Positions 3,452 through 49,745 of a stretch of 64,000 nt of DNA are shown here, piece by piece. The DNA is from Eledone cirrhosa (lineage: Eukaryota). Under the pieces are notes generated by a model. That model did not search any database and had not been told where the DNA came from. It saw only the letters and a program-made list of their open reading frames with translations. The DNA lies in the NCBI GenBank assembly GCA_964016885.1, contig OZ024742.1, positions 223,510,001 to 223,574,000 on the forward strand. Direction: 5' to 3'. Both the position numbers and the translations under genes were made by a program. The stretch's first letter is position 1, and the number at the start of each line of letters is the position of its first letter.

Positions 3452-3453
<2 letters not shown>

Positions 3454-3926
3454 TAGATTATGAGGTTAACTGAACAGAGATGTGTGAACCACATTATGGT
3501 CTATTGTTTGTGAAGCAGATAAAAAGAAGCAATCAACGACGTGTATAAATGGTGCCAGCTGGAGCATTATATATTATAAAAAGATCGGAGGCCATATTCA
3601 GTTGATTCAAGTTTATTTAAAACTCTGTTATACGTATTTCACTGAGGACTATCAGTTATAATAGCCTGAACTCTTCAGACAGCAAAAATTATAAAAACAA
3701 TGAAAGTTCCTTAAAAAACCTTTATGTTTATATTAAGAAAAGAAAATCTTTTTCAAGGAAGTTATTGGATTTTTCCAAACTTAAAAAGGTTTTTTTTAGG
3801 AACTTTTATTGTTTTTATAGGTTTTTTTGCCATCTGAGGAGCTCAGGCTATCATAACTGATAGTCCCCAGTGAAATATGTCTAACAGTGTTTTGAATAAA
3901 CCTGAACCAACTGAATCTTTTAATAA
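3452..3926 (-). mobile_element. TA-inserted foldback element with hammerhead ribozymes (Penelope-like, non-autonomous)
   Basis: Inverted arms at ~3597-3723 and ~3785-3916, each with a hammerhead core. Flanked by (TA)n and (CA)n. Confidence 0.75.
3625..3682 (-). ncRNA. Type I hammerhead ribozyme
   Basis: Minus strand reads CTGT-CTGAAGA-stem II-GAAA-TACGTA-TA-ACAG. Stem I is CTGT/ACAG and stem III is palindromic. A degenerate + copy lies at ~3829-3887. Confidence 0.7.
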
Positions 3927-3931
3927 TATAT

Positions 3932-3991
<60 letters not shown>

Positions 3992-3994
<3 letters not shown>

Positions 3995-4120
3995 TTTATC
4001 CTGGGTTCAATTGGGGGTAACCACAATAAGTAAGGTACTCAATACATAGCAGAGTATAAATATTTAATATAGAAATGGCTTCTACAGGACTAGAACTGTT
4101 TCATTTGAGAGAAATCATCA
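3992..4120 (-). mobile_element. Short TA-flanked element with a 5'-truncated hammerhead core and TTGAGTAC tail motif
   Basis: Minus strand TGATGA-TTT-CTCTC-AAAT-GAAAC abuts (TA)n. GTACTCAA at ~4036. Confidence 0.5.
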
Positions 4121-4212
4121 TATATATATATATATATATACATACATATTATACTCATCATTATCATTAACATATATATACATACATATTATACTCATCA
4201 TTATCATTAACA

Positions 4213-4405: not shown

Positions 4406-4461
4406 TTAACATGGAAAGCATTGAGGGTGGGAAGCATAAACTTATGATAATGATACACACA

Positions 4462-16800: not shown

Positions 16801-17700
16801 GTGCTCTGAAAGTACTGTAGCTAGAGTCAGAACTGGTTGGAAAAAGTTCAGAGAGCTTATACCACTATTAGCTGCTAAAGGGTTCTCCCTAAAAATGAAA
16901 GGCAGGTTGTACGATGCCTGCATACGAACAGCAATGTTGCATGGTAGTGAGACCTGGGCATTGTGTGCAGAGGATATACGCAGACTAGAGAGGAACGAAG
17001 CTTGCATGCTCCGCTGGATGTGTAACAGTAATATACGTGAACGGCAAAGCATAAACGAACTAAGGAAAAAATTAGAGATAAGAGGGATCAGATGTTGTTT
17101 ACTCGAGAGAAGGCTGCGTTGGTATGGACACGTGATGCGCATGAAAGTCGATAGCTGTATAACAAAGTGCAGGGCAATAAAGATAGACGGTAGCCACGGA
17201 ATAGGCAGACCTAGAAAAACATGGGATGAGCTGATAAACTCCGACCTCACACACTTACACCTCTCCAAGACAATGTCACTGGACCGAGACCTTTGGCGGT
17301 ACTCAGTAACAGAGAAGACCCGCCTTGCCAGTAGGCATCTCTAACAAAATACACCCCCGTCCCGCCACCACCCCCACCCCATCCACACCACCCCGTTCTA
17401 TGTAAAGTTATGTTGGTGCCGCGCCATCCAGGCCGAAACAAATGAGATCGTGTAGGTGTCACGACAAAAAAACATACAGTCCACGCTGTAATGTGGCCGT
17501 GTAGGCAACACGGTAAAAACCTCCCAAACCCACACTGTAAATGTGGTTGGTGTTAGGAAGGGCATCCAACTGTAGAAAACCTGCCAGACAGTCCTATGCG
17601 AGCAAGACAATCACTCTTGCCTCAAGTGGGACTACCCCCGTCCAAACCCATGCAAGCGTGGAACACGGACGTTAAACGTTGATGATGATGATGATGATGA
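13880..17700 (+). mobile_element. Near full-length RTE-clade LINE with (GAT)n tail
   Basis: 5' UTR (start uncertain), APE-RT ORF, 3' UTR, and GATGATGAT tail at ~17680-17700. Confidence 0.93.
14161..17344 (+). pseudogene. RTE ORF (APE + RT with inserted PHD finger), disrupted
   Basis: Motifs NVGTL, IQETRW, YAPQ, GDLNGH, TSQHR, NYRGIKL, FVDLEKAFD, HQGSVLSP, YADD, RLRWYGHV. Frameshift at ~14785; stops at 15725 and 16055. Confidence 0.92.
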
Positions 17701-18117: not shown

Positions 18118-18292
18118 CAGTATCGGTAGAGGGTCGGACGCCATGCTTTCCAGCATAGTTACGTCCCTTTACCATCTGAGTTCAAATCCCGCCGAGGTTG
18201 ACTTTGCCTTTCATCCTTACGGGGTCGATAAAATAAAGTACCAGTAATGCACTGGTAATTGCTGGCCTTGTGCCTAAAGTAGAAACAATTAT
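18118..18292 (+). mobile_element. Nin/Deu-domain tRNA SINE (5'-truncated)
   Basis: Matches the family. An empty-site copy of the flank is present at 18670-18757. Confidence 0.85.
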
Positions 18293-18984
18293 TAATATTC
18301 GAAAAACTCAGATTACGTTTATTGTATTCAGCCATGTAGAGCGAAATTTTCTTTTTTATTTGAATTTGGCAAAGCCGGCCATTTATCGCTCGTATACAGG
18401 AAACTGACTGGCCAGTCTGCTGATATGCAAATCTGGCTGATCAGTGGATCTGCTAATATGCAGATCTGACTGATCACCAGTCTGCTAATATGCAAATCAG
18501 GCCGATCAGTCACTGTGTATTTTTGAAAATAGCATATATTTTCACTAACTCTGACAGTTTGGCAGGGGAACAGTGTGCTGTACTGATGAAGGGTGATACC
18601 CAGAAACATTAGTGTCTGCAGTTCTGTTCGCATGCCAAACAAGAGCAAGAATGAAGGGTTCAGTCTACTGACATGACTATAAAATTGAGGCTTTTTTGCA
18701 TAATTGCAAACGAATCGAATGTTATTATTAATATTCGAAAAACTCAGATTACATTTATATATCTCTATATATATATATACACATACACACTCACATATAG
18801 CCCCCCCCCCCTCCCCCCAAATGTATACACAGTTCAACAGCATTCTAATCAGTGTGTATACATTTCTTTGGGACGCTCTGCATATATATATAGAGATACA
18901 GAGACACAGACATATATACAAACACACGCATACAAATATATTTAAACACACACATATATATATATATAAACATGCACACATATA

Positions 18985-23065: not shown

Positions 23066-23747
23066 CTTCGGAGTTAAGAATAATGTAAATAATTTAGTTG
23101 AACGAAAATGACAGAGGTTATTAAAATCATAAAAGTAATAATAATTAAATATATACATACACGCATCTATATACACGTGTACATACACGAAAGATTGGAA
23201 ATCTAAAGATGAACCACAAATATTATAAACACCATGCATATTTCTACAAGTACATAGTGCCTGTTGAGGTATTCATCCACTTTTATAATTTTTCTCCTTA
23301 TGTAGAGAACAAAACGTTGAATAATGCTGCTAATTTTAGTGGCAATATCAACATGTTTATAATAAACAGCTATTATCTGCGACCTGATTTTGCGTGTGTG
23401 TCATTTTAACGGCTTGACCGCATGCGTTGGGCAGGAAGCGAAATATTTACTTACTGTAGGGCGAGCAACCTTATAGTGTGGAAATAAGCTGTCTGAAGAT
23501 TCATTTCTTTCCATTGGAAATTCTTTGGATTGCCAATCTTTTGGAATGATGAAACCGTCGGTAACAGCAATAGAACAGGTGATTATTTAAATCGTTGATT
23601 TATTTAGAGAATCGTTTGATAACCGCTTGCTCCGCTATTTTTTATATTGTTCTGGTATCTCGAATTAGTACCATTGAACCACAAATATTATAAACACCTT
23701 GCATATTTCTACAAGTACATAGTACATCCACTTTTATATATATATAT

Positions 23748-24212
23748 AGTAAAAAATTGAACGGGAACAAAACAGAGAGGCAGTACGAACAAAGGTTTAT
23801 TAGTTTCACGCTCTTGAGAGTGGGGTGGTGGTGGGGAACGACGTTTCGTGCATAAGCCCTTCTTCAGGTGAAAAGTGTGTGGGAAGAGAGTTCCAAGGGT
23901 GTGTAAGGGAGTGGTGGAGAGACATATAGAAAAAAGGGGGTGAGAGGAAACGGTACAAATGAAATTAAATATAAAAGCATGATAAAAATAAAAATACACA
24001 TGAAGTAAAACAGGTGGTGGAAGGGTGTGGGGCGTGTAGGGATGGTGGCGGGTGGAGTGGGGAGAGGGAGGCTGGGTGTCCGAGCGGGGAGGGTGGAAGG
24101 TGGTGTGTGTGTGTAGGTGTACATGTGTGTGTGTGTGTATGTGAAAGTAAGAGTTGGGGAGAGAAACGGGGTTGCATGTTTCAGGAAGAGGTGTGTGAAG
24201 GGTGGGGTGTAG
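23748..24212 (-). mobile_element. Penelope-like pseudo-LTR fragment with a degenerate minimal hammerhead (~23838-23870)
   Basis: Minus strand CTGAAGA-AGGGCTTATGCAC-GAAACGTC with downstream AATAAA. Flanked by (TA)n. Confidence 0.6.
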
Positions 24213-24497
24213 ATATATATATATATTTAAAAGTTAAACAAGGTTCAATGAATAAATCAAAGAATGAGTTTAAACAATTCCCCCTCTCTATATTCCACTA
24301 CATACCTAATTCTCTCCCACTCTTTATATTCCACTACATACCTTACTCTCTTTCACACTCTTAACTCTCCTCTCTCACTAGGCTAAGAAATTCACATCCC
24401 TCTCTATATCCCACTACACACCTCACACTCGCTCTCAATTTCCCCTCTCTCACTAGACACGAACACACACACACATATGTATGTATATATATATATT

Positions 24498-28809: not shown

Positions 28810-28854
<45 letters not shown>

Positions 28855-28856
<2 letters not shown>

Positions 28857-29873
28857 GAGAACAAGTTATCGTTATAGGTAATCCAGTCAGAGGTTGTGAG
28901 TACTCTGTATTGTAGATAGTTCTAACGTACGCCGTTGTTTGACTCAACAATAGGTTTCCATAGTTAGGTAGCGAGTTCGCGAGAATTCCTATGCAGGTTA
29001 TTATTGGAGTAATAATAGTGAAAGATTGAAGAATAACATGGTCGGCTGTACAAAAAGGGTCTTATTTCTAGTATTAACAATTGTTTCATTGATCAGGTGA
29101 GTCTAAAGGCCGCTAATCACTTGAAGTTGCGTCACTTGACCTTAAATACAGTGTTTACCTCTAATCAAATCATCGGAATACTGGAGGTTTTACATATGGC
29201 ATTGGTATTTATAGATACCACGGAGAATCAAAACAGTAACATCAATAATAAAAGATAAAAAAAAAGTTAGAATGAAGATGATAAAGATGTAAAAAATAAG
29301 TAAAACGATAAGTATAGAATACGATTGCTGATAATAGTGGTGGTGGTGATTAAAGTTACAGTGGTGAGTAAGTGTATGTGTAAAGACATGATGAGAGTAG
29401 AGATAATAATACTAACATGAAATGAAACATTAAATACATACATACGTAGTTGTCAAATCTCAGAGGGTTAGAGTAGAAAATAAAAAATAGTAACAAATAA
29501 CAGATAAAAGATAAAAGATAAAAAATAAAAAATAAATTAAAAATTTAGTGAGCGGGGAAGGGATACAGAACAGGAGACAGGGAGTGGGGGTGGCGATACG
29601 AGGATGAGACATAAGGGGTAGGGCCAAGGACGGGGAAGGAATAGATAGGTAGATAGAGAATAAAAATTGAGAGGGAGAGATACCAATGCCATATGTAAAA
29701 CCTCCAGTATTCCGATGATTTGATCAGAGGTAAACACTGTATTTAAGGTCAATTGACGCAACTTAGAGTGATTAGCAGCCTTTAAACTCACCTGATCAAT
29801 GAAACAATTGTAAATACTAGAAATAAAACCCTTTTTGTACAGCCGACCATGTTATTCTTCAATCTTTCACTAT
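28855..29873 (-). mobile_element. TA-inserted foldback element with two long-stem-II hammerheads
   Basis: Inverted arms at ~29015-29208 and ~29680-29873. GAGTACTC in the tail at ~28898. Confidence 0.8.
29705..29820 (+). ncRNA. Type I hammerhead variant (CCGAUGA core, ~80-nt stem II domain)
   Basis: AGTATT-CCGATGA-TTTGATCAG...CTGATCAAT-GAAA-CAATTG-TA-AATACT. Mirror copy at 29068-29183 on the minus strand. Confidence 0.65.
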
Positions 29874-29890
29874 ATATATATATATATATA

Positions 29891-29998
29891 ACGAAGGAAG
29901 AATGGTAAGGAACCAGGTGGACCATAATGCACCAGAGTACTCAACACTTTGGGTAGTAGAGTGGGGAATAGGAAAATGTTCAAAACCCTTTTTTCCTA
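29891..29998 (-). mobile_element. Minimal TA-flanked element: tail plus ~10-bp inverted end (second copy at 36678-36779)
   Basis: GAGTACTCAA motif and ATAGGAAAA...TTTTCCTAT. Confidence 0.65.
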
Positions 29999-30018: not shown

Positions 30019-30845
30019 TATTGTTATACTTGGGGAGGGTCATATTGTTGTAATAATATTGCCAGCAATGATAATGGAACACACTGTTTGGTTGGTTTTT
30101 GCTTCTGTATCTTTTATATCTCCATAGTTAATTCATTTGGCCATCAATGTTTATCATTTACTGACCAACGGTCAAAAATTTATATAAATATCTAAACATA
30201 GAAATGACCCAGCAAATCAGAGAAGCAAGCGAAATAGAGCTTAGAAAGCCAAAGCTAAACAGAAAAAATGAATGGAATAACAACAACACCCAAACAAACA
30301 ATACTGACTTAAGAGAAATATAAATAAATAAATAAATAAATAAATATATACACAAGCACAATAACAACAAACACATATAAACACACACTAATAAACTAAG
30401 ATAGGATACAATAACCAAAACACAGTCACCCAAACGTGAACACACGCACCAAACACTATACACACACGCAAACGCAGAGATGAAGACAAAAATAAATAAA
30501 TAAATAAATAAACAGATAAAATAAAAATGGCGTAGACATACAATACAACAGGAGGAAACATAATAGTACCACTGATGATGTTGCAGATGTGCAACGAAAG
30601 AACTTTGGTAGACTATATATATGTATCTATATCTGTATTTTTGACCGTTGGTCAGTCAATGATAAACATTGATGGCCAAATGAATTAACTATGGAGATAT
30701 AAAAGATACAGAAGCGAAAACCAACCAAACAGTGAGTGTGTTCCATTATTATTTCTGGCAATATTATTACAACAATATGACCCTCCCCAAGTATAACAAT
30801 ATTTGTTTCAACACACAATTTCATATAAAAAATCTTGCAAAACAA
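30019..30845 (+). mobile_element. TA-inserted foldback element with a hammerhead at 30567-30610
   Basis: Arms at ~30019-30178 and ~30637-30802. TACCA-CTGATGA-TGTTGCA GATG TGCAAC-GAAA-GAACTT-TGGTA. Confidence 0.8.
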
Positions 30846-31250: not shown

Positions 31251-31800
31251 ATATAAATGAAGTATTTCCATAGGAAAGGTAAAGGAAAAGAGAGTGCTCT
31301 ATGTAGGCTACAGAGCTTTTTAGTTATGTAATAAATAACATAAGATAATTATTTCATTTACCAGTGGTTTCTTGAAGACAGATACTTATGTCTGTCTTTA
31401 TTCACCAGAAGAAATATTTATTTATGAAATAGTAATATGGATTTGAAAACAGAGTTTAGGATAAATGAAAGTGAGGCTGAAATAAGATAACGGGCAAAAA
31501 TTGAGGGGAAAAAAATTAGTAAATAAATATCCAAATACATACTATTACGTATATGCATGAGTTTGAGTAGGTGTATGTTTATGTATTTGGATATTTATTT
31601 ATTAATTTTTTCCCTCTCAAATTTTGCCCGTTATTTTATTTCAGCCTCACTTTCATTTATCCTAAACTCTGTTTTCAAATCCATATTACTATTTCATAAA
31701 TAAATATTTCTTCTGATGAATGAAGACAGACATAACTATCTGTCTTCAAGAAACCACTGGTAAATGAAATAATTATCTTATGTTGTTTATTACATAACTA
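31251..31800 (-). mobile_element. TA-inserted foldback element; hammerhead at 31706-31770 (+), mutated mirror at 31351-31415
   Basis: Arms at ~31321-31543 and ~31575-31800. ATTTCTT-CTGATGA-ATGAAGACAGA..TCTGTCTTCAA-GAAA-CCACTGG-TA-AATGAAAT. GAGTGCTC in the tail. Confidence 0.82.
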
Positions 31801-31808: not shown

Positions 31809-32186
31809 CAAAATGGATATTTAATTTGTTGGTATATCAACAAATATATATGTTTATAACTGATTCGAAGCACTCAACAAGTTTTCTGGAGTATAATATC
31901 AATGATATTAAATAAATGGAAACTATATTTATAAAACCATATTTATTCTATTATATATATTTCAAGGGTACCAAAACTTTGGTACGCTCTCATCAGATAA
32001 AATACAAAGTTTGTATCCAGGAAAATCTTGAACCGTTAAGATCTTCTTCCTGGATATGTTAATATTTATAAAACAAACTTTGTATTTTATCTGATGAGAG
32101 CGTACTAAAGTTTTGGTACCCTTGAAATATATATAATAGAATAAATATGGTTTTATAAATATAGTTTCCATTTATTTAATATCATA
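31809..32186 (-). mobile_element. TA-inserted foldback element with two hammerheads (31944-32004 minus, 32083-32143 plus)
   Basis: TATTTTAT-CTGATGA-GAGCGTAC..GTACCCTT-GAAA-TATATA-TA-ATAGAATA. GCACTCAA in the tail. Confidence 0.85.
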
Positions 32187-32211: not shown

Positions 32212-32403
32212 AGAAGTGATTACACAACAGTTAGTTCACCATAACATGGTTATATGGAACCATGTCCATTATGAGCTGAGGAACCGCTAAGGTAAAACAA
32301 TTGTTCTCGGTATGGTGAACTAACTGTAACCACTTCTACCTAACTCGTCCCATGGACTGAGTGCTCTACCACTACGGATATTACCTTCCAGTGTTCTACC
32401 ACT
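32212..32403 (+). mobile_element. Small TA-inserted foldback with a mutated hammerhead (32273-32308)
   Basis: GAAGTG..CAGTTAGTTCACCATA pairs with TATGGTGAACTAACTG..CACTTC. GAG-CTGAGGA-ACC GCTAA GGT-aAAA-CAATTG-TT-CTC. GAGTGCTC tail. Confidence 0.7.
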
Positions 32404-32958: not shown

Positions 32959-33875
32959 AAGGATTAGAATACTGGAGCGTGTTGGAGTCAAACACCCTCT
33001 TCGTATTATAGAAATGACAGTAAAAGGTATAGCTCAATGCAGTTAAACAGAGCCAAAAAATTAAGAGAGTAAAACAAAGAATCCTTTAATACATCAAAAG
33101 TTTTTATTAGCCGACAATGTTTCGTCCTATTAAGGACTCATCAGGGCAATCAAAACAACAAGAGGTAATATCGGCAGATACAAGCCAGAAACTCTGAAGA
33201 ATATGGAGTGTACATACACTAATGTCTTACAAAAATATATGATAATAAAAATGAAAATAAAGATAAAAATAATAAAAATATATAATAAGAATAACTAAGG
33301 ATGTAGATAACATTAAGAACCATATTACAAATATAGTCCAAAGCAACTAACCTAAATCTCAACAAATTTGGTTATATAGAGCAGGAATTATATATAACAC
33401 AATATAATACATTATAATAATAATATACTTCTACCAACATTAAAATTCCAAATTAAAAATCAAAAGGTACAATATATACATGTATATATGTGCGCACACA
33501 CACACACACACACACACATATATAACAACACACACATCTATGTTCCACTACACAAAATTAAGCCCTATTAGAAGTTTGAATATTAAAAATAAGCATGATA
33601 AGAGTGAAAATAATACTAATACATCTACCCAATATACATGAGGCAATAATATGATATAATTACAAGAAACACATATAACAAATAATAAACAACAAAATTA
33701 TATAATTCAATATAATATAATAAAATAGATAATCCCCGGTTAATTTACAGAAACAATATAGATGTCACAATAAAATACAATGATAAAACGTTAACATTTA
33801 CCATAAACAATATATACAAATTGATTCATACTGGGTTACAGAATAAATGAGGAAAAATAAATTATATAATACTCA
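32959..33875 (-). mobile_element. Penelope-like pseudo-LTR fragment between TA tracts
   Basis: Contains a canonical minimal hammerhead followed by AATAAA on the minus strand. Confidence 0.65.
33110..33147 (-). ncRNA. Minimal type I hammerhead ribozyme
   Basis: GCC-CTGATGA-GTCCT TAAT AGGAC-GAAA-C ATT GTC-GGC. All core bases are canonical, with a GUC cleavage triplet. Confidence 0.88.
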
Positions 33876-33876
33876 A

Positions 33877-33924
<48 letters not shown>

Positions 33925-33926
<2 letters not shown>

Positions 33927-34543
33927 GAATTGTTATTACTTTATCTTTTAGTTTTTTCTTTCATTTTATTTTTTTATGGTTATATTTTGTATTCTTGTAT
34001 TTCTTTATTCCTTTATTCCCTTTGTACTTACTTCAAAGACTGTGACAGCAGACTTCCGGCAGACCAGGTGCTACGCAAGAATGAATTTGGTATAAGACCA
34101 GCGTAAAATGCCGCCTTGACCAACAAATGGCAGTAACAGCTGCTGAGTTCTAGGTCGTTACCCATTGAGATTTGACCGAATACAATTTAACAGGATGAAT
34201 ACGGTGATGACACATTCCTTTAACAGAGTGTGTGTGTAACAGCATAAAATAAGAAATCGGGATAAATATATAAATATCCAACCACTCTTAGACGCGAGTC
34301 TACATGGAAACACATATCTGAGGAGCTTCCGATTCCAGAGTCAGGATCGATCATTAAGCGATCGTTCCTCGAGCTGATCGACAGTGAAACATATGTAATA
34401 TGTAATTAAATATGTATATGATGCAACACTGATTCTTTGTTCCCTTATATATTAATACTATTGATATTCTGCTCCCTAAGAGCATTGAGTGCTCAACTAG
34501 GCATACCGCATACGGCCGCAATTAATTTGCTCCTTTAATACCT
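33925..34543 (+). mobile_element. TA-flanked element with a hammerhead at 34312-34403 and TTGAGTGCTCAA tail motif
   Basis: ACATAT-CTGAGGA-extended stem II-GAAA-CATATG-TA-ATATGT. Confidence 0.8.
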
Positions 34544-34756
34544 ATATATATATATATATATTCCTGGTCGTTCTTTTTCGGCTGCACGGGTGATTTTAGG
34601 CATGATCTCTGTGTGTTGGTATTTTAACGATAGTTATAGCTCTGGTTTATCCAAACTATTGAGCCCTCTGCCACACATGTCGGATATTGTTTATCGTGAT
34701 TTCGTGGGCCGATATTCCGATTCTCGATCATTCTAATATATATATATATATATATA

Positions 34757-34910
34757 AAATTAGAAAGACGTATATTAATATTGTCTAAGGTCCTGAAACC
34801 TTTGGTAATGGAGTAGTTATATATTGTGTTGTTCACTTTCTAATTAAATAGCTCTGTTCTATACATAGAGCACTCTTTTTCCTTTGCTTTTTCTTCGGAA
34901 TTACCTAAAA
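34757..34910 (+). mobile_element. Tail-only relative of the 31251 element with a short inverted end
   Basis: AGCTCTGT..TACATAGAGCACTCT..TTTCCTTT matches the reverse complement of 31280-31320. AATTAGAAAG/CTTTCTAATT inverted pair. Confidence 0.6.
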
Positions 34911-34949
34911 TACACACACACATACACACAGATACATATATATATATAT

Positions 34950-38575: not shown

Positions 38576-40665
38576 AATAATAATAATAATGAAATTATTG
38601 TGTAAAGTGCTCAGGTGCACTACAACTCGTCAAAGGTGCATGTATAGTACATAGAATAATATACAAATGTCAGGGAAGTGAACAGTGTATGAGTCATGAT
38701 ATACATGTGTGTATGTGAATGGAGGGGGAATATTAGGTGTAGTGTTGGCGAATCTCGGGAAGCATGGAGGTTTTAAAGGATGCAGTGTCTCGACAGCTAA
38801 CAACTGATGCAGGTATTTTGTTCCATGCTTCAGCAACTCTGAGCGTGAAAAAATGTTTCCGAAAGTCATGGGAACTGTGCTGTTTTCTGACTTTGTGGAC
38901 ATGTCCACGTGTGTTAGACACATGGAAATCAAAAAGGTACTCAAGGTTGTTGTTGGCAAGATCGTTAACAATTTTTGGGGCATTTACCAAGTCAGTTGCC
39001 AGGCGTCAGAGCTTCAGTGTATCCATGCCCAGGGAAGCAAGGCGTTCAGAGTATGGTAGATGCCTGATGGAGGGTATTCGCTTGGTTGCACATCTCTGAA
39101 CAGTTGCCAGGCGGTAAATATTCTGAGCAAGATAGGGGTTCCAGATTGGTGATGCAAATTCTAAGTGTGGCCGCACCATAGTCATGTACAGCCTTAAATA
39201 GATAGCTGGAGAGCGGCTGACAAACGTCTTGCTGAGTGATGCTAAGACACCCTCAGCCCTCTTGAACATTTTAGAGACGTGCTTCGCCCAATGCAAATCG
39301 CTGCTGACCGCAATGCCCAGGTCACGTTCACAAGAAGACTTCTTGATATTAGTATGTGGACGCTGGGTTTTTACTCCTAAAATGCATGGTCGTGCTCTTG
39401 TCCACAGCTAGCTTGAGTTGCCAGTCTGAGATCCATTGTTGCATTGTGTCCAGGTCAGACTGCAAGCAAGATCTATAGTGTTCAGGATCTGTCCTTTTTA
39501 TCTCAAGGTACAGCTTGATGTCATCTGCATACTTTAGTACTGTGGCATTCTTTAAGTTGGCATCTATGTCATTAATATATGCCACAAACAAAAGGGGGCC
39601 AAGAACAGATCCCTGTGGTACACCAGATGACATCTCATATGGTGAGGAATGCTATCCCAGAACCATGACTACCTCTCTTTGACTGAGAGTGAAGGACTTC
39701 AACCAGTTAAAAAGATCATCCTTCACACTCATTGCAGAGAGTTTTGCCATAAGCCTTTTGTGTGGCACAGAATTGAAAGCTTTCGCAAAGTCAAGGTAAA
39801 CAACATCCACCTATGAGCCGCCATCAGTGATCCGGGTGATGTCCTCAAGAAACTCGATAAGTTGATCACAGCAGCTGGAGTTGGGGATAAATCCAAATTG
39901 CGAGGGCCGGATAAGACTGTGAGAGCTCCAGAAGTTCCAAAGTGTTTCTCTGACACAGGATTCCATCAGTTTGGCGATGCAACTAGTAAGACTGACTGGA
40001 CGATAGTTCACAGGTGATGTGCGGTCACCCTTTTTGAACAGAGGAATGACACTGGCAGTTTTCCATTGTTCTGGAGTAGCACCGTTGTTCAGACAGAATT
40101 GGAAGAAGCGTGATAGCTGGTGCAGAACGAAGTACCCACCACGTTTAAGAAGCAGGTACATAACACCATCAAGACCAGGAGAGGCATGGTTGCGTTTATT
40201 TTTTAGGTGACGTCACAGCATTGCAGGTGTAAATTCCATGGTTGTAATAGAGTCCGGTGTCATAGGTGGTGGAGACGGTACACTCTGGTCTTCAATAGTG
40301 AAAATGCCTGCATAGCATTCAGCAATGAGCTCTGCACATTCCTTGGGGTCGTCAGTAACCTGGCTTGTGTGGGGATTGTGAAGAGGACCAACTGGAGAGT
40401 GAGGCCTCTGCTTTGAGTGAACATACTTCCAGAACACCTTACTGTCAGGGCTGGTTGCTATGTGCTGCTCAAATTGAAGCACTGCCTTTTTTGTCACCTG
40501 TTTGAGTTGGTTGGACGATTTATTTTGCCTCTTCCTATTGATGTCTGATTTGTGCAGTTTGTACTCACGTTCAGCATTGCGACGTTCTTTTCTGGCAAGA
40601 CGGACTGCTGCAGTCTCCCAAATTGCACTTTTGGGATGTTTTTCCGCTTACGTGGCACCGATGCT
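38576..40665 (-). mobile_element. 5'-truncated CR1 LINE (RT region, disrupted)
   Basis: NYRPVSLTS, GVPQGSVLGPLLF, KYADD, VRPHLEFA, TRGH and FFTLRVAEAWNK motifs; (ATT)n tail. Confidence 0.92.
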
Positions 40666-41469: not shown

Positions 41470-42625
41470 ATATAAGTATATACACGTGCATACATATATG
41501 TATACAGACGTACAGTAGTATGTATATATATATACATACATGCACACATATATATATGTACGTATGGATTCACCGAACATTTATTATAATGCTCGGTGTG
41601 TTTGTAAACAAACATCCCGTATTAAGCCGTAGTGTCTAGCAACCATCGTTGCTCATTTGTTCAACACTGACAAAGGAACACTGTACTAGTTTCAAGCTTA
41701 TTAGCTATCGTCAGCAACGTATACCTTCTTGCCAGATTGTTGAACGTATATACTTACCTTATGCATATTAACGGCTGAGTAGCCCAATTTGCATATCGAG
41801 TGGGTTAATCGGCTGGGTGCACCGAAAACGATAAACGGAAAAAATGAAACGAAATTTCATTTCCCACTCTTAGTACAGCTGTTACTTAAATATAAGTATG
41901 TACACGTACATACATATATGTATACAGACGTACAGTAGTATGTATATATATATATACATACATGCCGATGGTTGCTAGACACTACGGCTTAATATGGGAT
42001 GTTTGTTTACAAACACACCGAGCATTATAATAAATGTTCGGTGAATCCATAAGTACACATATATATGTGTGCATGTATGTATATATATATACATACTACT
42101 GTACATCTGTATACATATATGTATGTACGTGTACATACTTATATTTAAGTAACAGCCGTACTAAGAGTGAGAAATGAAATTTCGTTTCATTTTTTCCGTT
42201 TATCGTTTTCGGTGCACCCGGCCGATTAACCCACTCGATATGCAAATTGGGCTACTCAGCCGTTAATATGCATAAGGTAAGTATATACGTTCAACAATCT
42301 GGCAGGAAGGTATACGTTGCTGACGATAGCTAATAAGCTTGAAACTAGTACAGCGTTCCTTTGTCAGTGTTGAACAAACGAGCAACGATGGTTGCTAGAC
42401 ACTACAGCTTAATACGGGATGTTTGTTTACAAACACACCGAGCATTATAATAAATGTTTGGTGAATCCATACGTACATATATATATGTGTGCATGTATGC
42501 ATATATATATATACATACTACTGTACATCTGTATACATATATGTATGTACGTGTACATACTTATATTTAAGTAACAGCCGTACTAAGAGTGGGAAATGAA
42601 ATTTCGTTTAATTTTTTCCGTTTAG
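41470..42625 (+). mobile_element. Inverted plus tandem array of a 420-bp hammerhead-containing unit (retrozyme/pLTR-like)
   Basis: GATGGTTGCTAGAC at 41967 and 42387. 41470-41964 is the reverse complement of the unit. Confidence 0.82.
42314..42356 (+). ncRNA. Type I hammerhead ribozyme (mirror copy at 41678-41720 on minus)
   Basis: ACGTTG-CTGACGA-TAGCT AATA AGCTT-GAAA-CTAG-TA-CAGCGT, with a possible distal stem I extension. Confidence 0.82.
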
Positions 42626-42862
42626 AAAAATATAGTTTTGAGAAAATAAACTTGCTCGACCTGTTTGAAAACAAAGCTTCATGTATTATCAAGAAAAGGT
42701 GGATTAATGAGAACATTTTTATTTTCTGTATGTGGAAATAGAAAATATGCATGGCTGTGTGATTAAGGGATTCTGGGTTCAGTCTTGTTGTGAAAGTTGA
42801 GCAAGTGACTTCTGCTAAACATACATTCACTCACACACACACATATGTACACACATATATAT

Positions 42863-42911
<49 letters not shown>

Positions 42912-42915
<4 letters not shown>

Positions 42916-45403
42916 AGTCTGTGGCTGGAGCAGGCCTGTAGGCAGGAGGAGAGTAACATGGTGGTGGAACAGTAAGGTGGAGGGGTCAATTAAGGCCAAA
43001 AAGCAGGCTTGGAAAGTATGGCGGGATGGGGGAAGTAGAGAAGACTATCAAGTGGCCAGGAGGGAAGCTAGGAGACAAGTGTACTTCGCAAGAATGGAAG
43101 CAGAGGAAAGAAAGTTCAAGCATGTTCTACAACGTGAGGACCAAAAACGTGAGGTGTTCAGGATTGCTAGGCAATGTGTCAAGGAAAACAGTGATATTGT
43201 CGGGGAGAAGTGTGTACTTAACGATGACGGCGTACTTGCCATCACCGACGCCGATAAGAAGGTAGCTTGGAAGTGTCACTATGAAAGGCTACTAAATGAG
43301 GAGAATAAATGGGAGAAAGACAGTCTCCCCCACATCGACCCAATAGAGGGACCAGCAGTGTTAGTCGAGGGTAGTATAATAAGTAAGGCAATCAAAGATA
43401 TGAAGACAGGCAAGGCGGCTGGGCCTTCGGAAATAGTTGCCGAGATGCTGAAGGCATCTGGTACGGTGGGACACACCATGGTCACCCGGATAGTCAACCA
43501 AGTCATACAGAATGGGGTTGTTCCGAAGGACTTGCGTAGCAGCATTATCGTTAACTGTTATAAGGGTAAAGGAGATGCCCTAGATAGGAGTAACTATAGA
43601 GGCATTAAATTAATCGACCAGGTCATGAAGGTCACGGAAAAAGTAATAGCGCAACTAATCAGAGAGCGAATTGATCTAGATGAAATGCAGTTCGGGTTTG
43701 TGTCAGGAAAAAGTACCACAGACGCTCTTTTCATTGTACGACAACTACAGGAGAAGTACCTAGCTAAAAGTAAACCCCTATACTTAGCTTTCGTCGACTT
43801 AGAGAAGGCCTTCGACAGAGTCCCCCGTTCCATTATCTGGTGGGCTCTTAGAAAACTAGGTGTTGATGAATGGCTTGTGAGAGCCATAGAAGCCATGTAT
43901 AAAGAAACAGTCAGCAAGGTTAGAATTAACAACGAATATAGTGAAGAGTTTAGTGTAAAAGTTGGTGTTCATCAGGGCTCTGTTCTTAGCCCCCTACTAT
44001 TTATTATTGCCCTCCAGGCTATAACAGTGGAGTTCAAGACCGGCTGCCCATGGGAACTCCTATACGCAGATGATCTAACGCTCATAGCTGAATCAATGGC
44101 CGAGCTAGAGAAGAAATTCCAAACATGGAAGCACGGAACTAGAATCAAAAGGCCTTAAAATTAACCTGGCTAAGACTAAAGTTCTAGTTTGTAAGAAAGA
44201 AAATAAGGCGGCGGTCCCCTCCGGGAAGTGGCCATGCGCAGTGTGTAGGAAAGGCGTAGGTAGAAATTCCATTTTGTGTCCCAAATGCAAAGTTTGGGTG
44301 CATAAAAGATGTAGTGGGATCACAGGTAAGCTAACTAAGAACATAGATTTTACATGTGGCCGGTGTTCTGGGGCAATAAGTAGCAGCAAGTGCCTACAAA
44401 ATACTAGCTCTTTCAACTGCGCAGAGGGTTCTATAGAAATAGTGGACAGCTTCCGTTACCTGGGTGACAAAATCAGCAGTGGGGGAGGGTGCTCTGAAAG
44501 TACAGTAGCTAGAGTCAGAACTGGGTGGAAAAAGTTCAGAGAGCTTATACCACTATTAGCCGCTAAAGGGTTCTCCCTAAAAATGAAAGGCAGGCTGTAC
44601 GATGCCTGCATACGAACAGCAATGTTGCATGGCAGTGAGACCTGGGCATTGTATGCAGAGGATATACGCAGACTAGAGAGAAACGAAGCTTGCATGCTCC
44701 GCTGGATGTGTAATAGTAATATACGTGAACGACAAAGCATAAACGAACTAAGGAAAAAATTAGAAATAAGAGGGATCAGATGTTGTTTACTAGAGAGAAG
44801 GCTACGTTGGTATGGTCACGTGATGCGCATGAAGGACGATAGCTGTATAACAAAGTGCAGGGCAATAAAGATAGACGGTAGCCACGGAATAGGCAGACCC
44901 AGAAAAACCTGGGACGAGCTGATAAACTCCGACCTCACACACTTACACCTCACCAAGACAATGTCACTGGACCGAGATCTTTGGCGGTACTCAGTAATAG
45001 AGAAGACCCGCCTTACCTAAATACAAAGTAAAACCTACTACAGTCAGTAGGCATCTCTAACAAAATACACCACCCCCACCCCATCCACACCGCCCCCTTC
45101 AATGTAAAGTTATGTCGGTGCCACACCATCCAGGCCGAAACAAATGAGATCGTGTAGGTGTCACGACAAAAAAACACACAGTTCACGCTGTAATGTGGCC
45201 GTGTAGGCAACACGGTAAAAACCTCCCAGACCCACACTGTAAATGTGGTTGGTGTTAGGAAGGGCATCGAACTGTAGAAAACCTGCCAGACAGTCCTATG
45301 CGAGCAAGACAATCACTCTTGCCTCAAGTGGGAAAACCCCCGTCCAAACCCATGCAAGCGTGGAACACGGACGTTAAACGTTGATGATGATGATGATGAT
45401 GAT
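42912..45403 (+). mobile_element. 5'-truncated RTE LINE (RT+PHD) with a frameshift at ~44140, TA-flanked
   Basis: Very similar to 15226-17700. ORFs 42845-44158 and 44241-45020. Confidence 0.93.
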
Positions 45404-45737
45404 ATATAAGAAATTAAAAGATGGTTAAAAAAGTTCCATATATTTTATTATGCGCATTTCCTGGGACGATAATTGCGTTCTCATCAGATAAAATAAGGTA
45501 ACATGATATGATGCCTAAAAACACTTGTGAACAAGAAAGTGTCCAGTCAACATATGTTGAACGCAATTATCGTCCCAGGATGATATTTGTTTTTGAAATA
45601 CGCATAATAAAATATATGGAACTTTTTTAACCAACTTTTAATTTCTTCTATATATATACTCCAATTCTATCAACTGTTGAGTGCTACTTATCTGATATAT
45701 GCATAGTTTTATTGTTCTACAATATAACTCACCTCCT

Positions 45738-45740
<3 letters not shown>
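45404..45740 (+). mobile_element. TA-inserted foldback element; hammerhead at 45441-45495 (minus)
   Basis: Arms at ~45408-45480 and ~45559-45647. Minus strand TATTTTAT-CTGATGA-...-GAAA-TGCGCA-TA-ATAAAATA with imperfect stem II. TTGAGTGCT at 45677. Confidence 0.72.
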
Positions 45741-45774
<34 letters not shown>

Positions 45775-45779: not shown

Positions 45780-48680
45780 TCATCATCATCATCATCATCA
45801 CCGTTTTACGTCCGTTCTTCCACGCTAGCATGGGTTAGACGGGTTGTCCTGTTGTGGGCAGTGTCTGGTCGGCTGACCATGCCTTGCTCATACAGGAACT
45901 GATCTGGCTTGATTTCTACAGCTGGATGCCCTTCCTAACACCAACCTCATTTACAGTGAGTGCTGGGTGCTTTTTCGTGGCGCCTACACGTCCACTTTAC
46001 AGTGTGGGCTGGGTGCTTTTTTGCCGTGGCACCTCCACGACCACCTTGCGGTGGGGGGGGGGGGGCATATTGTTTATATGCTTCAGCATGTACCCATGGG
46101 AGGTCGGGTACCCTGTATTACTGCGTGACGCCAGAAGTCACGGTCGTGTGTCATTGACTTTGAGAGGTGTAGTTGGGTAAGGTCGGCTTTTATCACCTCA
46201 TCCCAAGTCATCTTGGGTCTCCCCACTCCGCGGTTTCCATCAACTTCTAGTGCTCTGCACCTTTTTATGCAGCTGTCATCCTTCATACGCATCACATGTC
46301 CATACCAGCGTAACCGCCTCTCCTGCACGCAGCATTTGATTCCTCTTATGCTCAGTCTCTCTCTCAATTCATTTATGCTTTGTCGTTCACGTATATTACT
46401 GTTACACATCCATCGGAGCATGCAGGCTTCGTTTCTCTCTAATCTACGTAAGTCTTCCACCTTCAGCGCCCAGGTCTCACTACCATGCAACATCGCTGTT
46501 CGGATACACGCATCATACAGTCTGCCTTTCATTCTGAGGGAGAAGCCTTTTGCAGCTAGCAGTGGTAGTAGTTCCCTAAACTTCTTCCATCCCGTTCTTA
46601 CCCTAGTTATTGTACTTTCTGAGCACCCACCTCCGTTGCTAATTCGGTCACCTAGGTAGCAGAAGCTGTCTACTGTTTCTACAGGGCCCTCCCAGAGATT
46701 GGTGGTACTTGTTTCCTGTGGCTGTTTGCTTGCTGTTTCAGCACAGCTGCTGCATGTGAATCCTACATTCTTAATTAAGCTTCCTGAGATCCCGCTACAT
46801 CTCTTGTGTACCCATTGTTTGCATTTGGGGCAAAGAATGGAGTTCCTACCTACACCTTTCCTACATACTGAGCAAGGCCATTTCCCTGAGGGGATCTGGG
46901 TTCTGTTTTCTCGTCTACTTATAAGGACCTTAGTCTTTGTCATGTTGACTTTGAGGCCCTTTCTCTCTAGTCCCTGCTTCCAGGTTTGGAATTTATTCTC
47001 TAGTTCTACCATAGATTCAGCTATGAGTGCGAGGTCATCAGCATACAGGAGTTCCCATGGGCATCCGGTCTTAAACTCCTCCGTTATTGCCTGCAGGACT
47101 ATGATGAACAGGAGAGGGCTAAGAACAGAGCCCTGGTGGACCCCAACCTGTACGCTAAATTCCTCGCTATACTCATTGCCAATCCTAACTTTGCTGACTG
47201 CTCCCCTATACATGGCTTGTACCGCTTTCACAAGCCATTCATCTACTCCTAGTTTTCTAAGAGCCCACCAGATTACTGCACGTGGAACTCTGTCAAAGGC
47301 TTTCTCAAGGTCGACAAATGCCAAGTAGAGTGGCTTACTTTTAGCTAGGTACTTTTCCTGTAATTGCCTCACAAGGAAGAGCGCATCAGTGGTGCCTTTC
47401 CCTGGTACAAACCCAAATTGCATCTCGTCTATATTCACCCGGTCCCTAATCAGCTGTGCTATAACTCTTTCTGTTACTTTCATGACCTGGTCCATCAACT
47501 TTATACCTCTATAGTTTCCTCTATCTAGTGCATCGCCTTTACCTTTGTAGCAGTTGACAATGATGCTACTGCACCAATCTTTTGGTATGGCCCCCTCTAG
47601 TATTACCTGGTTAACGATACGTGTGGTTATAGTGTGACCTACAGACCCAGATGCCTTCAGCATCTCGGCAGCTATACCCGATGGACCGGTTGCCTTCCCT
47701 ATCTTCATATCTCTGATTGCCTTACTTACTACGCTGCCGCTGACTTGTACTGCTGGTCCCTCTATAGGGTCTACGTGGGGTAGGGTCTCTTCTTCCCATG
47801 CATTCTCCTCATTTAGTAATCTATCATAATGACTCTTCCATGCATCTTTCTTCTCAGCACTTGTGAGGGCAAGCTCACCTTTATCATTCCGGATACACTT
47901 CTCTCCAATGACATCACAACTATCTCTGACACACTGCCTCGCAATCTTGAATACCTCCTGTTTCTGGTCCTCACGTTGTAAAACATGCTTGAATTTTCTA
48001 TCCTCTGCTTCCCTCCTAGCTAAGTATACTTGTCGCCTAGCTTCCCTCTTGGTCTCTATGTAATGTACCCTGCTCCCCCCGTTCTTCCATTCTTTCCATG
48101 CCTGTCTCTTGGCCTTGACTGCTTCATCTACCTTATTGTTCCACCACCAAGTCACTCTCCTCCTGCTTGAGGTCTTACTCCAGCCACAAACCTCATCCGT
48201 CGCCTCTAGTAAGTTATTTTTTAGGAACTCCCAGTTCTCTTCTACGTTAAATGTCTCTATCTGTTCTTCTTTACTGTCGTAGGCGTTGAGTAAAATATCT
48301 TTAAATCTGTTACTGGTTGAGGGGACTTTCAGCTTCCAGATCTTTCTTCTCCAGGTTGGCCTCTGTTTCAGGGCTCGTCTAGTTCTGACCGTGAGGTCGC
48401 TGACAACTACGCTATGTTGGGATGTACATTCCTCACTAGGGAAGGCTTTTGTGTTTACGACCGTCCATCTGTCACGTCCTCTGATGAGGATAAAATCTAA
48501 CTGACTAGAGTGCTCCCCTGATTTATAGGTGATCAGGTGGTTGTCGGGTTTTTTAAAGTTTGTGTTACATATCGACATGTCATTGGCGTCGCAGAATTCT
48601 AGAAGTCTGAATCCTTCCTCATTCCTTGTGCCAACTCCATGGCCTCCATGTACTCTATTGAAGCCGTCGCAGTGTTTACC
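45775..48680 (-). mobile_element. 5'-truncated RTE LINE, second subfamily, TA-flanked
   Basis: Uninterrupted reading frame, 3' UTR and (GAT)n tail. Confidence 0.93.
46083..48680 (-). CDS. RTE APE C-terminal half plus RT with PHD finger (open frame, lacks N-terminus)
   Basis: 831-aa ORF extendable to 48680 (GKHCDGFNRVHGG...). Motifs FVDLEKAFD, HQGSVLSP, YADD and C4HC3 finger. Confidence 0.9.
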   Translation of the reverse strand, partial: GKHCDGFNRVHGGHGVGTRNEEGFRLLEFCDANDMSICNTNFKKPDNHLITYKSGEHSSQLDFILIRGRDRWTVVNTKAFPSEECTSQHSVVVSDLTVRTRRALKQRPTWRRKIWKLKVPSTSNRFKDILLNAYDSKEEQIETFNVEENWEFLKNNLLEATDEVCGWSKTSSRRRVTWWWNNKVDEAVKAKRQAWKEWKNGGSRVHYIETKREARRQVYLARREAEDRKFKHVLQREDQKQEVFKIARQCVRDSCDVIGEKCIRNDKGELALTSAEKKDAWKSHYDRLLNEENAWEEETLPHVDPIEGPAVQVSGSVVSKAIRDMKIGKATGPSGIAAEMLKASGSVGHTITTRIVNQVILEGAIPKDWCSSIIVNCYKGKGDALDRGNYRGIKLMDQVMKVTERVIAQLIRDRVNIDEMQFGFVPGKGTTDALFLVRQLQEKYLAKSKPLYLAFVDLEKAFDRVPRAVIWWALRKLGVDEWLVKAVQAMYRGAVSKVRIGNEYSEEFSVQVGVHQGSVLSPLLFIIVLQAITEEFKTGCPWELLYADDLALIAESMVELENKFQTWKQGLERKGLKVNMTKTKVLISRRENRTQIPSGKWPCSVCRKGVGRNSILCPKCKQWVHKRCSGISGSLIKNVGFTCSSCAETASKQPQETSTTNLWEGPVETVDSFCYLGDRISNGGGCSESTITRVRTGWKKFRELLPLLAAKGFSLRMKGRLYDACIRTAMLHGSETWALKVEDLRRLERNEACMLRWMCNSNIRERQSINELRERLSIRGIKCCVQERRLRWYGHVMRMKDDSCIKRCRALEVDGNRGVGRPKMTWDEVIKADLTQLHLSKSMTHDRDFWRHAVIQGTRPPMGTC

Positions 48681-48689
48681 TATATATAT

Positions 48690-49318
48690 GTGGAAGTTCT
48701 ATTTAAATTGTTGGGATACAACAAGCAAATATTTTTATAACTGATATAAAGCACTCAACAAATAATTGGAGTAAAAATACGATATTAACAAATGGAAACT
48801 ATATTTATAAAACCATATTTATTTCATTATACATATTTCAAGGACACCAAGTTAAATTATGGTGTTCTTTCATCAGATAAAATATAATGTAGAGCAGTTT
48901 TATAAATAAATATTGACATACCCTTAAAGAATGCGATCATTACTGTTGGAAGCTATCCAGGAGCTTCCAACAGTAATGGTCGTAGTCTTTAAGGGCATCA
49001 TCATCATCATCATCATTTTACGTCCACTTTTCCCTCATCTCATTTCTTCAGCTGAGGAAACTGGAGCAATGTGAAATAAAGTGTCTTGCTCAAGGACACA
49101 ACACATCACCCGGTCTGAGAATTGAACTCACAACCTTTCAGTTGCAAGGTCAATGCTCTAACCACTAAGCCATGTATGTCAATATTTATTTATAAAACTG
49201 CTCTATATTATATTTTATCTGATGAAAGCACACCATAATTTAACTTGGTGTCCTTGAAATATGTATAATGAAATAAATATGGTTTTATAAATATAGTTTC
49301 CATTTGTTAATATCGTAT
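48690..49318 (-). mobile_element. Near-complete palindromic hammerhead element (family of 31809), interrupted by a SINE fragment
   Basis: Hammerheads at 48820-48884 (-) and 49211-49275 (+). Central hairpin at 48921-48995. GCACTCAAC tail. Confidence 0.83.
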
Positions 49319-49328
49319 ATATATATAT

Positions 49329-49739
49329 AGTTTTGCGAGGTTTTTGATATGAAATCGTGTGTCGAAACAAATATTGTTATACTTGGGGAGGGTCATATTT
49401 GTGTAATAATATTGCCAGAATTAATAACAGAACACACTCACTGTTTGGTTGGTTTTCGCTTATGGCGTAGGCATACAATACAACGGGAGGAAACATAATA
49501 ACACCACTGACGATGTTGCAGATGTGCAACGAAAGAACTTTGTTAGACTATATATATGTGTTTGTGTCTATATTGTATCTGTATTTTTGACCGTTGGTCA
49601 GTCAATGGTAACATTGAGGACCGAATAAATTAAATTAACCGATATAAAAGACACAGAAGCAAAATCCAACCAAACAGTGAGTGTGTTTTGTTATTAATTC
49701 TGGCAATATTATTACACAAATATGACCCTCCCCAAGTAT

Positions 49740-49745
<6 letters not shown>
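49329..49745 (-). mobile_element. Foldback element of the 30019 family; hammerhead core at 49502-49545 (+)
   Basis: High similarity to 30530-30845. CTGACGA-TGTTGCAGATGTGCAAC-GAAA. Confidence 0.8.

What the first reader, a model, noticed from the sequence alone, without database searches (positions are those of the whole stretch)
3452..49745. About 14 non-coding, mostly (TA)n-inserted elements carrying about 20 type I hammerhead ribozyme cores
Seen in sequence: CUGANGA-stem II-GAAA-stem III-NUH cores, most with a pairing stem I, at ~3625(-), 3829(+), 4095(-, truncated), 23838(-), 29068(-), 29705(+), 30567(+), 31351(-), 31706(+), 31944(-), 32083(+), 32273(+), 33110(-), 34312(+), 41678(-), 42314(+), 45441(-), 48820(-), 49211(+) and 49502(+). 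The host elements fall into at least 10 families that are dissimilar outside the core, lack ORFs, and nearly all sit between TA tracts. Established: Penelope-like element pseudo-LTRs and metazoan retrozymes carry type I hammerheads. Inference: this is a diverse, probably uncatalogued radiation of non-autonomous ribozyme retroelements mobilised in trans by a TA-targeting Penelope-like RT/GIY-YIG enzyme.
Basis: partly seen in the sequence, partly recalled or inferred. Interest (0 to 1): 0.88.

Follow-up and report, generated by a model that had tools for sequence, protein, structure and literature searches.

The report
Truncated Penelope elements plus true retrozymes
The ribozyme motifs are real, but most sit in broken-off tail ends of protein-coding Penelope-like jumping genes that insert into TA repeats, and only a few belong to non-coding tandem repeats that likely borrow those genes' enzymes; both are known kinds of element.

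Summary
Hammerhead cores lie at the stated places and far exceed shuffles (14 versus 0.39). About six are decayed or truncated, and two were missed (18583+, 23493+).

The reading 'non-autonomous radiation' is mostly wrong. For 15 of 20 cores (9 families), other genomic copies run upstream through long AT-rich 3' UTRs into RT/GIY-YIG coding sequence on the same strand. One parent is intact: hammerhead, 915-codon ORF, hammerhead. Eight parent families show Hydra-clade motifs; two look Neptune-like.

Only the 41.5-42.6 kb element (2 cores) and the unlisted 23.5 kb element are tandem, ORF-free non-LTR retrozymes. The 18.5 kb element probably is too. The 3.5 kb element is unresolved; the 4.1 kb element has a one-locus link to a coding parent.

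Opposite-strand hammerhead pairs, TA targeting and a tail at one end are all published (PMC4209133, PMC8557442). This scan reached the same verdict in other genomes. A useful quantitative addition: 107 of 119 inverted pairs have one short and one long end. Cleavage is untested. New members of known kinds.

The parts
3452..3925 (.). E3.5k: inverted pair of hammerhead-bearing 3' ends (cores 3678-, cleavage nt 3629; 3834+, decayed). Old family; parent not found.
   Evidence: No family-typical ORF in 59 loci with the core (1 isolated ORF piece); no tandem arrays seen.
3993..4120 (-). E4.1k: 5'-truncated end, first core box lost. One locus (L209) joins a Hydra-type ORF piece to this family's 3' UTR.
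18288..18765 (+).
   Evidence: Tandem copies in L099; not searched genome-wide.
23210..23734 (+). E23.5k (not listed): 465-bp ORF-free tandem unit with a core at 23493; non-LTR retrozyme.
   Evidence: Head-to-tail arrays; two fixed 3' ends followed by (TA)n.
23749..24213 (-). E23.8k: 3' end of a Neptune-like (CCHH) coding element, minimal core at 23867; ORF ends about 1.4 kb upstream in long copies.
   Evidence: 13 of 30 loci
28854..29870 (.). E29k: main arm on minus (core 29176) plus short inverted arm (core 29712); CCGAUGA core; Hydra-type ORF ends about 700 bp upstream.
   Evidence: 20 of 29 loci
30021..30800 (+). E30.5k: main arm (core 30572) plus inverted arm without core (30021-30190); Neptune-like RT/GIY-YIG ORF ends about 240 bp upstream.
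   Evidence: 21 of 30 loci
31257..31798 (.). E31.5k: inverted pair (core 31408- decayed; 31713+ intact); Hydra-type ORF ends about 840 bp upstream.
   Evidence: ORF piece in 2 of 56 loci plus a DNA link in L295.
31809..32184 (.). E32.0k: inverted pair (cores 31996-, 32091+); sister subfamilies run into Hydra-type ORFs about 1.4 kb upstream.
   Evidence: (L405, 94% identical to the window arm)
32213..32402 (+). E32.3k: short end with a decayed core (32276); Hydra-type ORF ends about 180 bp upstream in L054, L057 and L078.
32960..33885 (-). E33.1k: 926-bp 3' UTR plus hammerhead (core 33144) of a 4.84-kb Hydra-clade element with an intact 915-codon RT/GIY-YIG ORF (L184, L186).
   Evidence: (12 of 30 loci)
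33924..34542 (+). E34.3k: old 3' end (core 34318); Hydra-type ORF end about 0.7-0.9 kb upstream in L470, with the same ORF joined to inverted arms in L454/L455 and L461.
   Evidence: same-strand ORF in 1 of 55 loci
41470..42624 (.). E42k: 422-bp ORF-free tandem unit, here in an inverted and partial-tandem arrangement (cores 41714-, 42320+); young non-LTR retrozyme.
   Evidence: Arrays of 5 or more units; best copies 98-99% identical.
45405..45745 (.). E45.4k: inverted pair (core 45487-, stem II partly deleted; plus arm lacks the first box); a sister subfamily runs into a Hydra-type ORF about 0.95 kb upstream.
   Evidence: L233 + L556; 73% identical to the window arm
48688..49315 (.). E49k: inverted pair (cores 48876-, 49219+) joined at an internal hairpin and interrupted by a SINE-like repeat; Hydra-type ORF ends about 1.6 kb upstream.
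   Evidence: 7 of 29 loci
49330..49744 (+). E49.5k: second copy of the E30.5k family (core 49507, stem I mismatch).

Best explanation
The window is a TA-microsatellite-rich pile-up of 5'-truncated, often inverted 3' ends of at least nine protein-coding Penelope-like retrotransposon families, each ending in a predicted minimal hammerhead, plus two or three ORF-free tandem retrozymes that are likely copied by the same enzymes. Shown here: the ORF linkage, the tandem units, the TA flanks, two fixed 3' ends per family, and inverted arms that share private variants. Inferred mechanism: the RT/GIY-YIG protein nicks (TA)n and reverse-transcribes from one of two fixed sites downstream of the hammerhead, usually stopping before the ORF. 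A second synthesis from the other site on the opposite strand, copied from the same template, gives the inverted arm, and the two halves join at microhomologies or an internal hairpin. The hammerheads would cleave tandem or read-through RNA to unit length, probably as dimers through their palindromic stem III; this is untested.
For: ORF on the hammerhead strand at a family-typical distance: E23.8k 13 of 30 loci, E29k 20 of 29, E30.5k 21 of 30, E33.1k 12 of 30, E49k 7 of 29, E31.5k 2 of 56, E34.3k 1 of 55; E32.3k 3 loci; E32.0k L405 and L407; E45.4k L233 + L556. L184 is hammerhead / 915-codon ORF / 1.87-kb UTR / hammerhead, with both cores 100% identical to the window's over 71 nt. Its model is most like telomerase RT; it aligns with a Pfam-verified RT/GIY-YIG element (hhalign probability 86%); atlas neighbours carry HTH_animal, GIY-YIG and RVT_1. 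The genome gave 10,596 first-look GIY-YIG candidates, 150 scored. E42k and E23.5k form head-to-tail arrays and end at two fixed positions before (TA)n. 107 of 119 divergent pairs are one-short-one-long. 35 doubleton variants are shared by the two arms of one locus against 18 across loci, among 55 arms. Stem II covaries in 7 of 9 pairs.
Against: No cleavage or transposition was tested. E3.5k could not be linked to an ORF or to tandem arrays, and E4.1k is linked through one internally deleted locus only. The links for E31.5k, E34.3k and E45.4k rest on 1-4 loci, partly from diverged sister subfamilies (73-75% identity for E34.3k and E45.4k). The 915-codon ORF hits neither Pfam RVT_1 nor GIY-YIG directly (GIY-YIG in 2 of 41 homologues), and no solved structure matches it by sequence. 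Folding z-scores of 8 cores are mostly weak (-0.2 to -3.3). Short truncated copies could themselves be re-mobilised in trans, which locus counts cannot exclude.
Confidence: 0.88

Rival explanations
1. All or most elements are self-standing non-autonomous ribozyme retroelements mobilised in trans.
For: True for E42k and E23.5k, probably for E18.5k and possibly for E3.5k. In E49k, 28 of 30 loci retrieved with a junction-spanning query are palindromes of nearly fixed size.
Against: Nine families run into coding sequence with variable 5' ends. The E49k palindromes are remade at each insertion, because the two arms of a locus share private variants, and copies retrieved with an upstream query reach the ORF.
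Confidence: 0.08
2. The inverted arm is made by fold-back of the first cDNA (or homogenised later by gene conversion), with the second end set by endonuclease resolution, not by a second priming on RNA.
For: Junctions fall at internal hairpins (E49k, E33.1k) and the arms share private variants. PMC8557442 attributes the tail to endonuclease-mediated resolution.
Against: Either the longer or the shorter arm can carry the long end: by hand, E33.1k has 5 pairs with a short-ended main arm and 2 with a long-ended one. PMC11167929 shows two internal RT start sites that bound the tail in a Poseidon element.
Confidence: 0.35
3. The cores are chance matches or dead relics with no ribozyme role.
For: About six window cores are damaged; folding z-scores are weak. 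Hammerhead mutants did not block insertion in vitro for a lizard element (PMC11167929, part 2), and 8 of 9 Xenopus retrozyme dimers did not cleave (10.64898/2026.07.22.740005, part 3).
Against: 36-fold to 95-fold excess over shuffles. The first core box is conserved family-wide while N7 varies. Stem II shows compensatory changes.
Confidence: 0.07

Closest known systems
Hydra-clade EN+ Penelope-like elements, including Hydra-1_Obim of Octopus bimaculoides (Craig et al. 2021, PMC8557442, section 11 and File S1)
   Same: Single RT plus C-terminal GIY-YIG ORF with RW[K/R], DKT, CxCx5C linker, no CCHH, and CxxC/CxH around E and N; canonical-type hammerhead; (TA)n insertion; truncation, inverted 5' arm, tail at one end. 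By eye the L184 N-terminus resembles the Hydra-1_Obim protein shown.
   Different: Eight families seen from one 64-kb window. The L184 unit is 4.84 kb with a 1.87-kb 3' UTR and a long low-confidence insert, whereas the paper calls Hydra elements generally under 3 kb. The optional tail here is about 70-170 bp, not 30-40 bp. No phylogeny against the published families was run.
[quoted passage not shown]
   Same: Short or palindromic helix III, long helix II, extra nucleotide before stem II, many dissimilar families per genome, pairs 100-700 bp apart on opposite strands, most copies from truncated PLEs, U3-A8 variants.
   Different: One family here carries U4C (CCGAUGA) as its majority core; PMC3088659 mentions U4C only as a low-activity variant that still permits viroid infectivity. 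Some stem II extensions reach about 90 nt.
Metazoan non-LTR retrozymes (Cervera and De la Pena 2020, PMC7229834; Li, Clavereau and Pollet 2026, 10.64898/2026.07.22.740005)
   Same: E42k and E23.5k: ORF-free head-to-tail units of 422 and 465 bp, GC 35-37%, one type I hammerhead per unit, coexisting with PLEs.
   Different: These show PLE-type insertion marks directly (two fixed 3' ends, TA target, inverted arms). No autonomous relative was found among the held loci; circular RNA was not tested.
Neptune/Nematis-type EN+ PLEs (clade features per PMC8557442)
   Same: The E23.8k and E30.5k parents have two cysteines between GIY and YIG and a CX2-5CxxC linker.
   Different: Assigned by motif only.

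Membership tests
Type I minimal hammerhead of PLEs | Core boxes with stems I-III in type I order, above chance | tested here: met
   (10 vs 0.105; 14 vs 0.385). About six window cores are damaged.
Type I minimal hammerhead of PLEs | Short or palindromic helix III | tested here: met
   7 of the 14 descriptor hits are perfect palindromes; 34318+ is also palindromic by eye.
Type I minimal hammerhead of PLEs | Stem covariation among genomic copies | tested here: met
   on 19 diverse rows picked from 82 intact-core sequences of the E32.0k/E49k group: 91.9% of cells paired vs 87.1% shuffled (0/500); pairs with two-sided change 8 vs 5.5 (32/500); slid controls 35-55%. The structure was drawn from these same sequences; other families were not tested.
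Type I minimal hammerhead of PLEs | Self-cleavage at NUH | not testable with these tools
   needs in vitro assay
EN+ PLE, Hydra clade (parents of E29k, E31.5k, E32.0k/E49k, E32.3k, E33.1k, E34.3k, E45.4k) | Single ORF with telomerase-like RT and C-terminal GIY-YIG | tested here: met
   Full ORF only for E33.1k (Pfam misses it directly); C-terminal fragments for the others.
EN+ PLE, Hydra clade | RWK and DKT motifs, CxCx5C linker, no CCHH, CxxC and CxH at the end | tested here: met
   All read in the L184 translation, with RWR in place of RWK; linker and/or end motifs in the other parents; definition.
EN+ PLE, Hydra clade | Insertion into (TA)n; hammerhead in terminal repeat; partial tandem and inverted structure | tested here: met
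EN+ PLE, Hydra clade | Phylogenetic placement with published Hydra families | not tested
Non-LTR retrozyme (E42k, E23.5k) | ORF-free head-to-tail units of a few hundred bp, GC below 45%, hammerhead in each unit | tested here: met
   422 and 465 bp; longest ATG ORF 51 and 37 aa; GC 0.37 and 0.35; arrays
Non-LTR retrozyme (E42k, E23.5k) | No attached RT/EN ORF | tested here: met
   E42k: 1 of 30 loci has an unrelated single-copy ORF relic upstream. E23.5k: 3 of 20 loci have pieces at different distances behind TA tracts. Only top-scoring copies were sampled.
Non-LTR retrozyme (E42k, E23.5k) | Expressed as linear and circular monomer RNA | not testable with these tools
   no RNA data available
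Non-autonomous element (claim for all 14 elements) | Family has no coding members | tested here: not met
   9 of 12 families (15 of 20 cores) connect to coding sequence

The most novel reading that the evidence does not exclude
Inverted Penelope insertions follow a strict rule: both arms are copied from one template, and one starts at a short and the other at a long fixed site, one per DNA strand. The rule is shared by coding Hydra-clade families and by ORF-free retrozymes in this genome. With an intact natural Hydra RT/endonuclease and a young 422-bp retrozyme side by side, trans-mobilisation of a retrozyme and the origin of PLE inversions would become directly testable.
Probability: 0.4. Interest if true: 0.5.

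Novelty: new member of a known kind. Interest (0 to 1): 0.25.

Why it matters
As biology this is a known pattern, seen at unusual density: 16 hammerhead-bearing elements cover about 9 kb, or 14%, of the window. It is a practical warning that long AT-rich 3' UTRs make truncated coding elements look non-autonomous unless each family is walked upstream. The families are probably uncatalogued, though Dfam and Repbase were not checkable. The genome offers good material for two open questions: whether PLE enzymes really mobilise retrozymes (still a hypothesis in PMC7229834 and the 2026 preprint), and how PLE inversions and one-sided tails arise.

Tried and rejected
- Rfam is nearly blind to these cores: one sub-threshold match among the rows shown. 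The genome-wide RF00163 search gave 18 matches; the 10 fetched were all the E33.1k family.
- The fixed-palindrome idea (a viroid-like unit with hammerheads on both strands) for E49k was rejected. Arms share private variants within a locus and upstream copies reach an ORF.
- Starting from the top GIY-YIG loci mostly found other families and neighbours, not the window's parents.
- The query was not E45.4k upstream sequence; it hit a different young repeat.
- Three rounds on E3.5k (with 69 and 73) extended shared sequence to about 430 bp without reaching an ORF.
- A first long/short count by distance to TA gave 86 of 109, distorted by an internal TA run in E45.4k. It was redone by sequence. There the 6 E30.5k pairs all score long/long because my probe cannot separate that family's two ends; they are kept in the 119.
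- The PDB sequence search of alignment A1 found nothing.
- Sequencing runs: no RNA holder listed.
- Earlier-finding look-ups by place, by sequence and by Hydra words were empty.
- The organism was not determined. My guess of an octopod comes from recalled repeat types and genome size, not from a call.


Full report
SETTING. The window is G000:C3:223510001-223574000 of a 3.0-Gb, 1,796-contig genome. It is rich in long RT-like ORFs, short interspersed repeats and TA/CA microsatellites. I suspect an octopod from recalled repeat types; no call establishes the organism.

OBSERVATION. Each of the 20 claimed sites shows a hammerhead or its remnant. A strict descriptor finds 10 cores (8 claimed, 2 new) against 0.105 in 200 shuffles. 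A relaxed one finds 14 (12 claimed, 2 new) against 0.385. About six window cores are damaged: 3834, 4095, 23867, 31408, 32276 and 49507. The new cores are at 18583+ and 23493+. In genomic copies the first core box is conserved while N7 varies, for example 50 of 53 intact in E33.1k and 61 of 68 in E42k. E29k carries CCGAUGA in 20 of 35 copies. In 19 diverse rows chosen from 82 intact-core sequences of the E32.0k/E49k group, 7 of 9 stem II pairs change on both sides, and 91.9% of cells pair against 35-55% for slid structures. The structure was drawn from these sequences and the copies are related, so this is support, not proof. Folding z-scores of 8 cores are mostly weak. 20 of 22 cores have a TA tract within 300 bp downstream, against 30% of random positions.

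WHAT THE ELEMENTS ARE. The decisive test was to fetch 20-60 genomic copies per family and walk upstream. These samples are the top hits of my queries, so the fractions are not genome proportions. ORF pieces lie on the hammerhead strand at a family-typical distance in 13 of 30 loci (E23.8k), 20 of 29 (E29k), 21 of 30 (E30.5k/E49.5k), 12 of 30 (E33.1k), 7 of 29 (E49k), 2 of 56 (E31.5k) and 1 of 55 (E34.3k). E31.5k has a further DNA link in L295, and the E34.3k ORF is also joined to inverted arms in L454/L455 and L461. E32.3k is linked in three loci, E32.0k through L405 and L407, and E45.4k through one insertion read across L233 and L556. That accounts for 15 of 20 cores in 9 families.

THE CODING PARENTS. 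L184 holds a complete E33.1k element: hammerhead, 915-codon ORF, 1.87-kb UTR, hammerhead, and an inverted arm. Its cores are identical to the window's over 71 nt and the flanking DNA is 95-96% identical; L186 holds a second intact ORF. Pfam misses this ORF. Its model (pLDDT 80) is closest to telomerase RT, it aligns end to end with a Pfam-verified RT/GIY-YIG element of this genome, and its homologues carry HTH_animal and GIY-YIG. Its motifs match the Hydra clade as defined in PMC8557442 section 11. So do the ORF ends of the E29k, E31.5k, E32.0k, E49k, E32.3k, E34.3k and E45.4k parents, while the E23.8k and E30.5k parents have the CCHH type.

TRUE RETROZYMES. E42k is a 422-bp unit found in head-to-tail arrays of five or more copies, with best matches 98-99% identical. 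E23.5k is a 465-bp unit with similar arrays. Neither has an ORF over 51 aa or a linked parent. Both stop at two preferred positions followed by (TA)n, like the coding families, which points to the same enzymes (inference). E18.5k looks alike but was not searched genome-wide. E3.5k stayed unresolved after 60 loci and five small extensions. E4.1k has one locus joining a Hydra-type ORF piece to its UTR.

HOW IT LIKELY WORKS. Five of the six families measured have two fixed 3' ends about 70-170 bp apart; E23.8k showed one. In divergent pairs one arm has the short end and the other the long end in 107 of 119 cases; six of the exceptions come from a family my probe cannot score. In E49k the two arms of a locus share private variants, with 35 same-locus against 18 cross-locus doubletons among 55 arms, and they join at an internal hairpin. 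The inversion is therefore made anew at each insertion from one template. I favour two primings, one at each start site and on opposite strands, because either arm can be the longer one and because two internal RT start sites bounding the tail were mapped for a lizard element (PMC11167929). Fold-back synthesis with endonuclease resolution remains a live rival. The hammerheads would process tandem RNA, probably as dimers; this is untested, and cleavage was dispensable for insertion in that in vitro system.

COMPARISON. PMC4209133 already describes minimal hammerheads in many families per genome, pairs 100-700 bp apart on opposite strands, and their origin in truncated PLEs. PMC8557442 describes inverted 5'-truncated arms, a tail often at only one end, TA targeting, the Hydra clade and a Hydra family in Octopus bimaculoides. 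PMC7229834 and the 2026 preprint describe tandem retrozymes and propose PLE mobilisation. A repeat annotation of Octopus vulgaris (PMC13282606) lists 31 Penelope-like families in one table and contains neither 'ribozyme' nor 'hammerhead'. Searches for retrozyme + cephalopod, Penelope-like + twin priming and hammerhead + Penelope + octopus showed no paper on these families or on a quantified long/short rule in the held library; most subscription journals are not covered. Earlier agents of this scan reached the same 'truncated Penelope ends' verdict in other genomes; these are unchecked notes, not evidence.

WHAT I READ. PMC4209133: parts 1-2 of 4. PMC8557442: passages, section 11, and supplement look-ups. 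PMC11167929: part 2 of 4. 10.64898/2026.07.22.740005: parts 1-3 of 5; its supplements are closed and may list related invertebrate families. PMC7229834, PMC13282606 and PMC3088659: passages only.

VERDICT. These are new members of known kinds; interest 0.25.

Noticed in passing
window 29176(-) and 29712(+); loci L091-L120: The E29k family has CCGAUGA (U4C) as its majority core (20 of 35 copies) and a stem II extended to about 90 nt; the few CUGAUGA copies may be CpG decay.
   Followed up: partly
L012, L041, L056, L059 (GIY-YIG families): Other coding PLE families of this genome end in U3-A8 core variants that a CUGANGA search misses.
   Followed up: no
L184:2644-5388: The intact Hydra-type ORF has a low-confidence insert of about 140 aa between RT and the endonuclease linker, absent from the homologue consensus.
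   Followed up: no
window 29891-29996, 34561-34736, 34757-34936: Further TA-bounded pieces without a core; 34757-34936 is an inverted long tail of the E31.5k family, and 29891-29996 matches 85 held loci.
   Followed up: partly
G000:C1:81651602-81695087: A very young repeat (98-100% identical) with a cluster of at least eight copies; not identified.
   Followed up: no
window 41790-41800, 42240-42250 and 18420-18500: The tandem units E42k and E18.5k carry octamer-like boxes (motif recalled; counted), possible internal promoter elements.
   Followed up: no
window 14032-17344, 42809-45020, 46083-48698, 38630-40647, 56255-60546: Long RT-like ORFs of other LINE types, some nearly intact such as the 871-codon frame at 46083-48698; type judged by eye.
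   Followed up: no
L441:400-1760: A tandem unit of about 510 bp ends in a partial E45.4k hammerhead arm, possibly a template switch between families.
   Followed up: no
   Followed up: no
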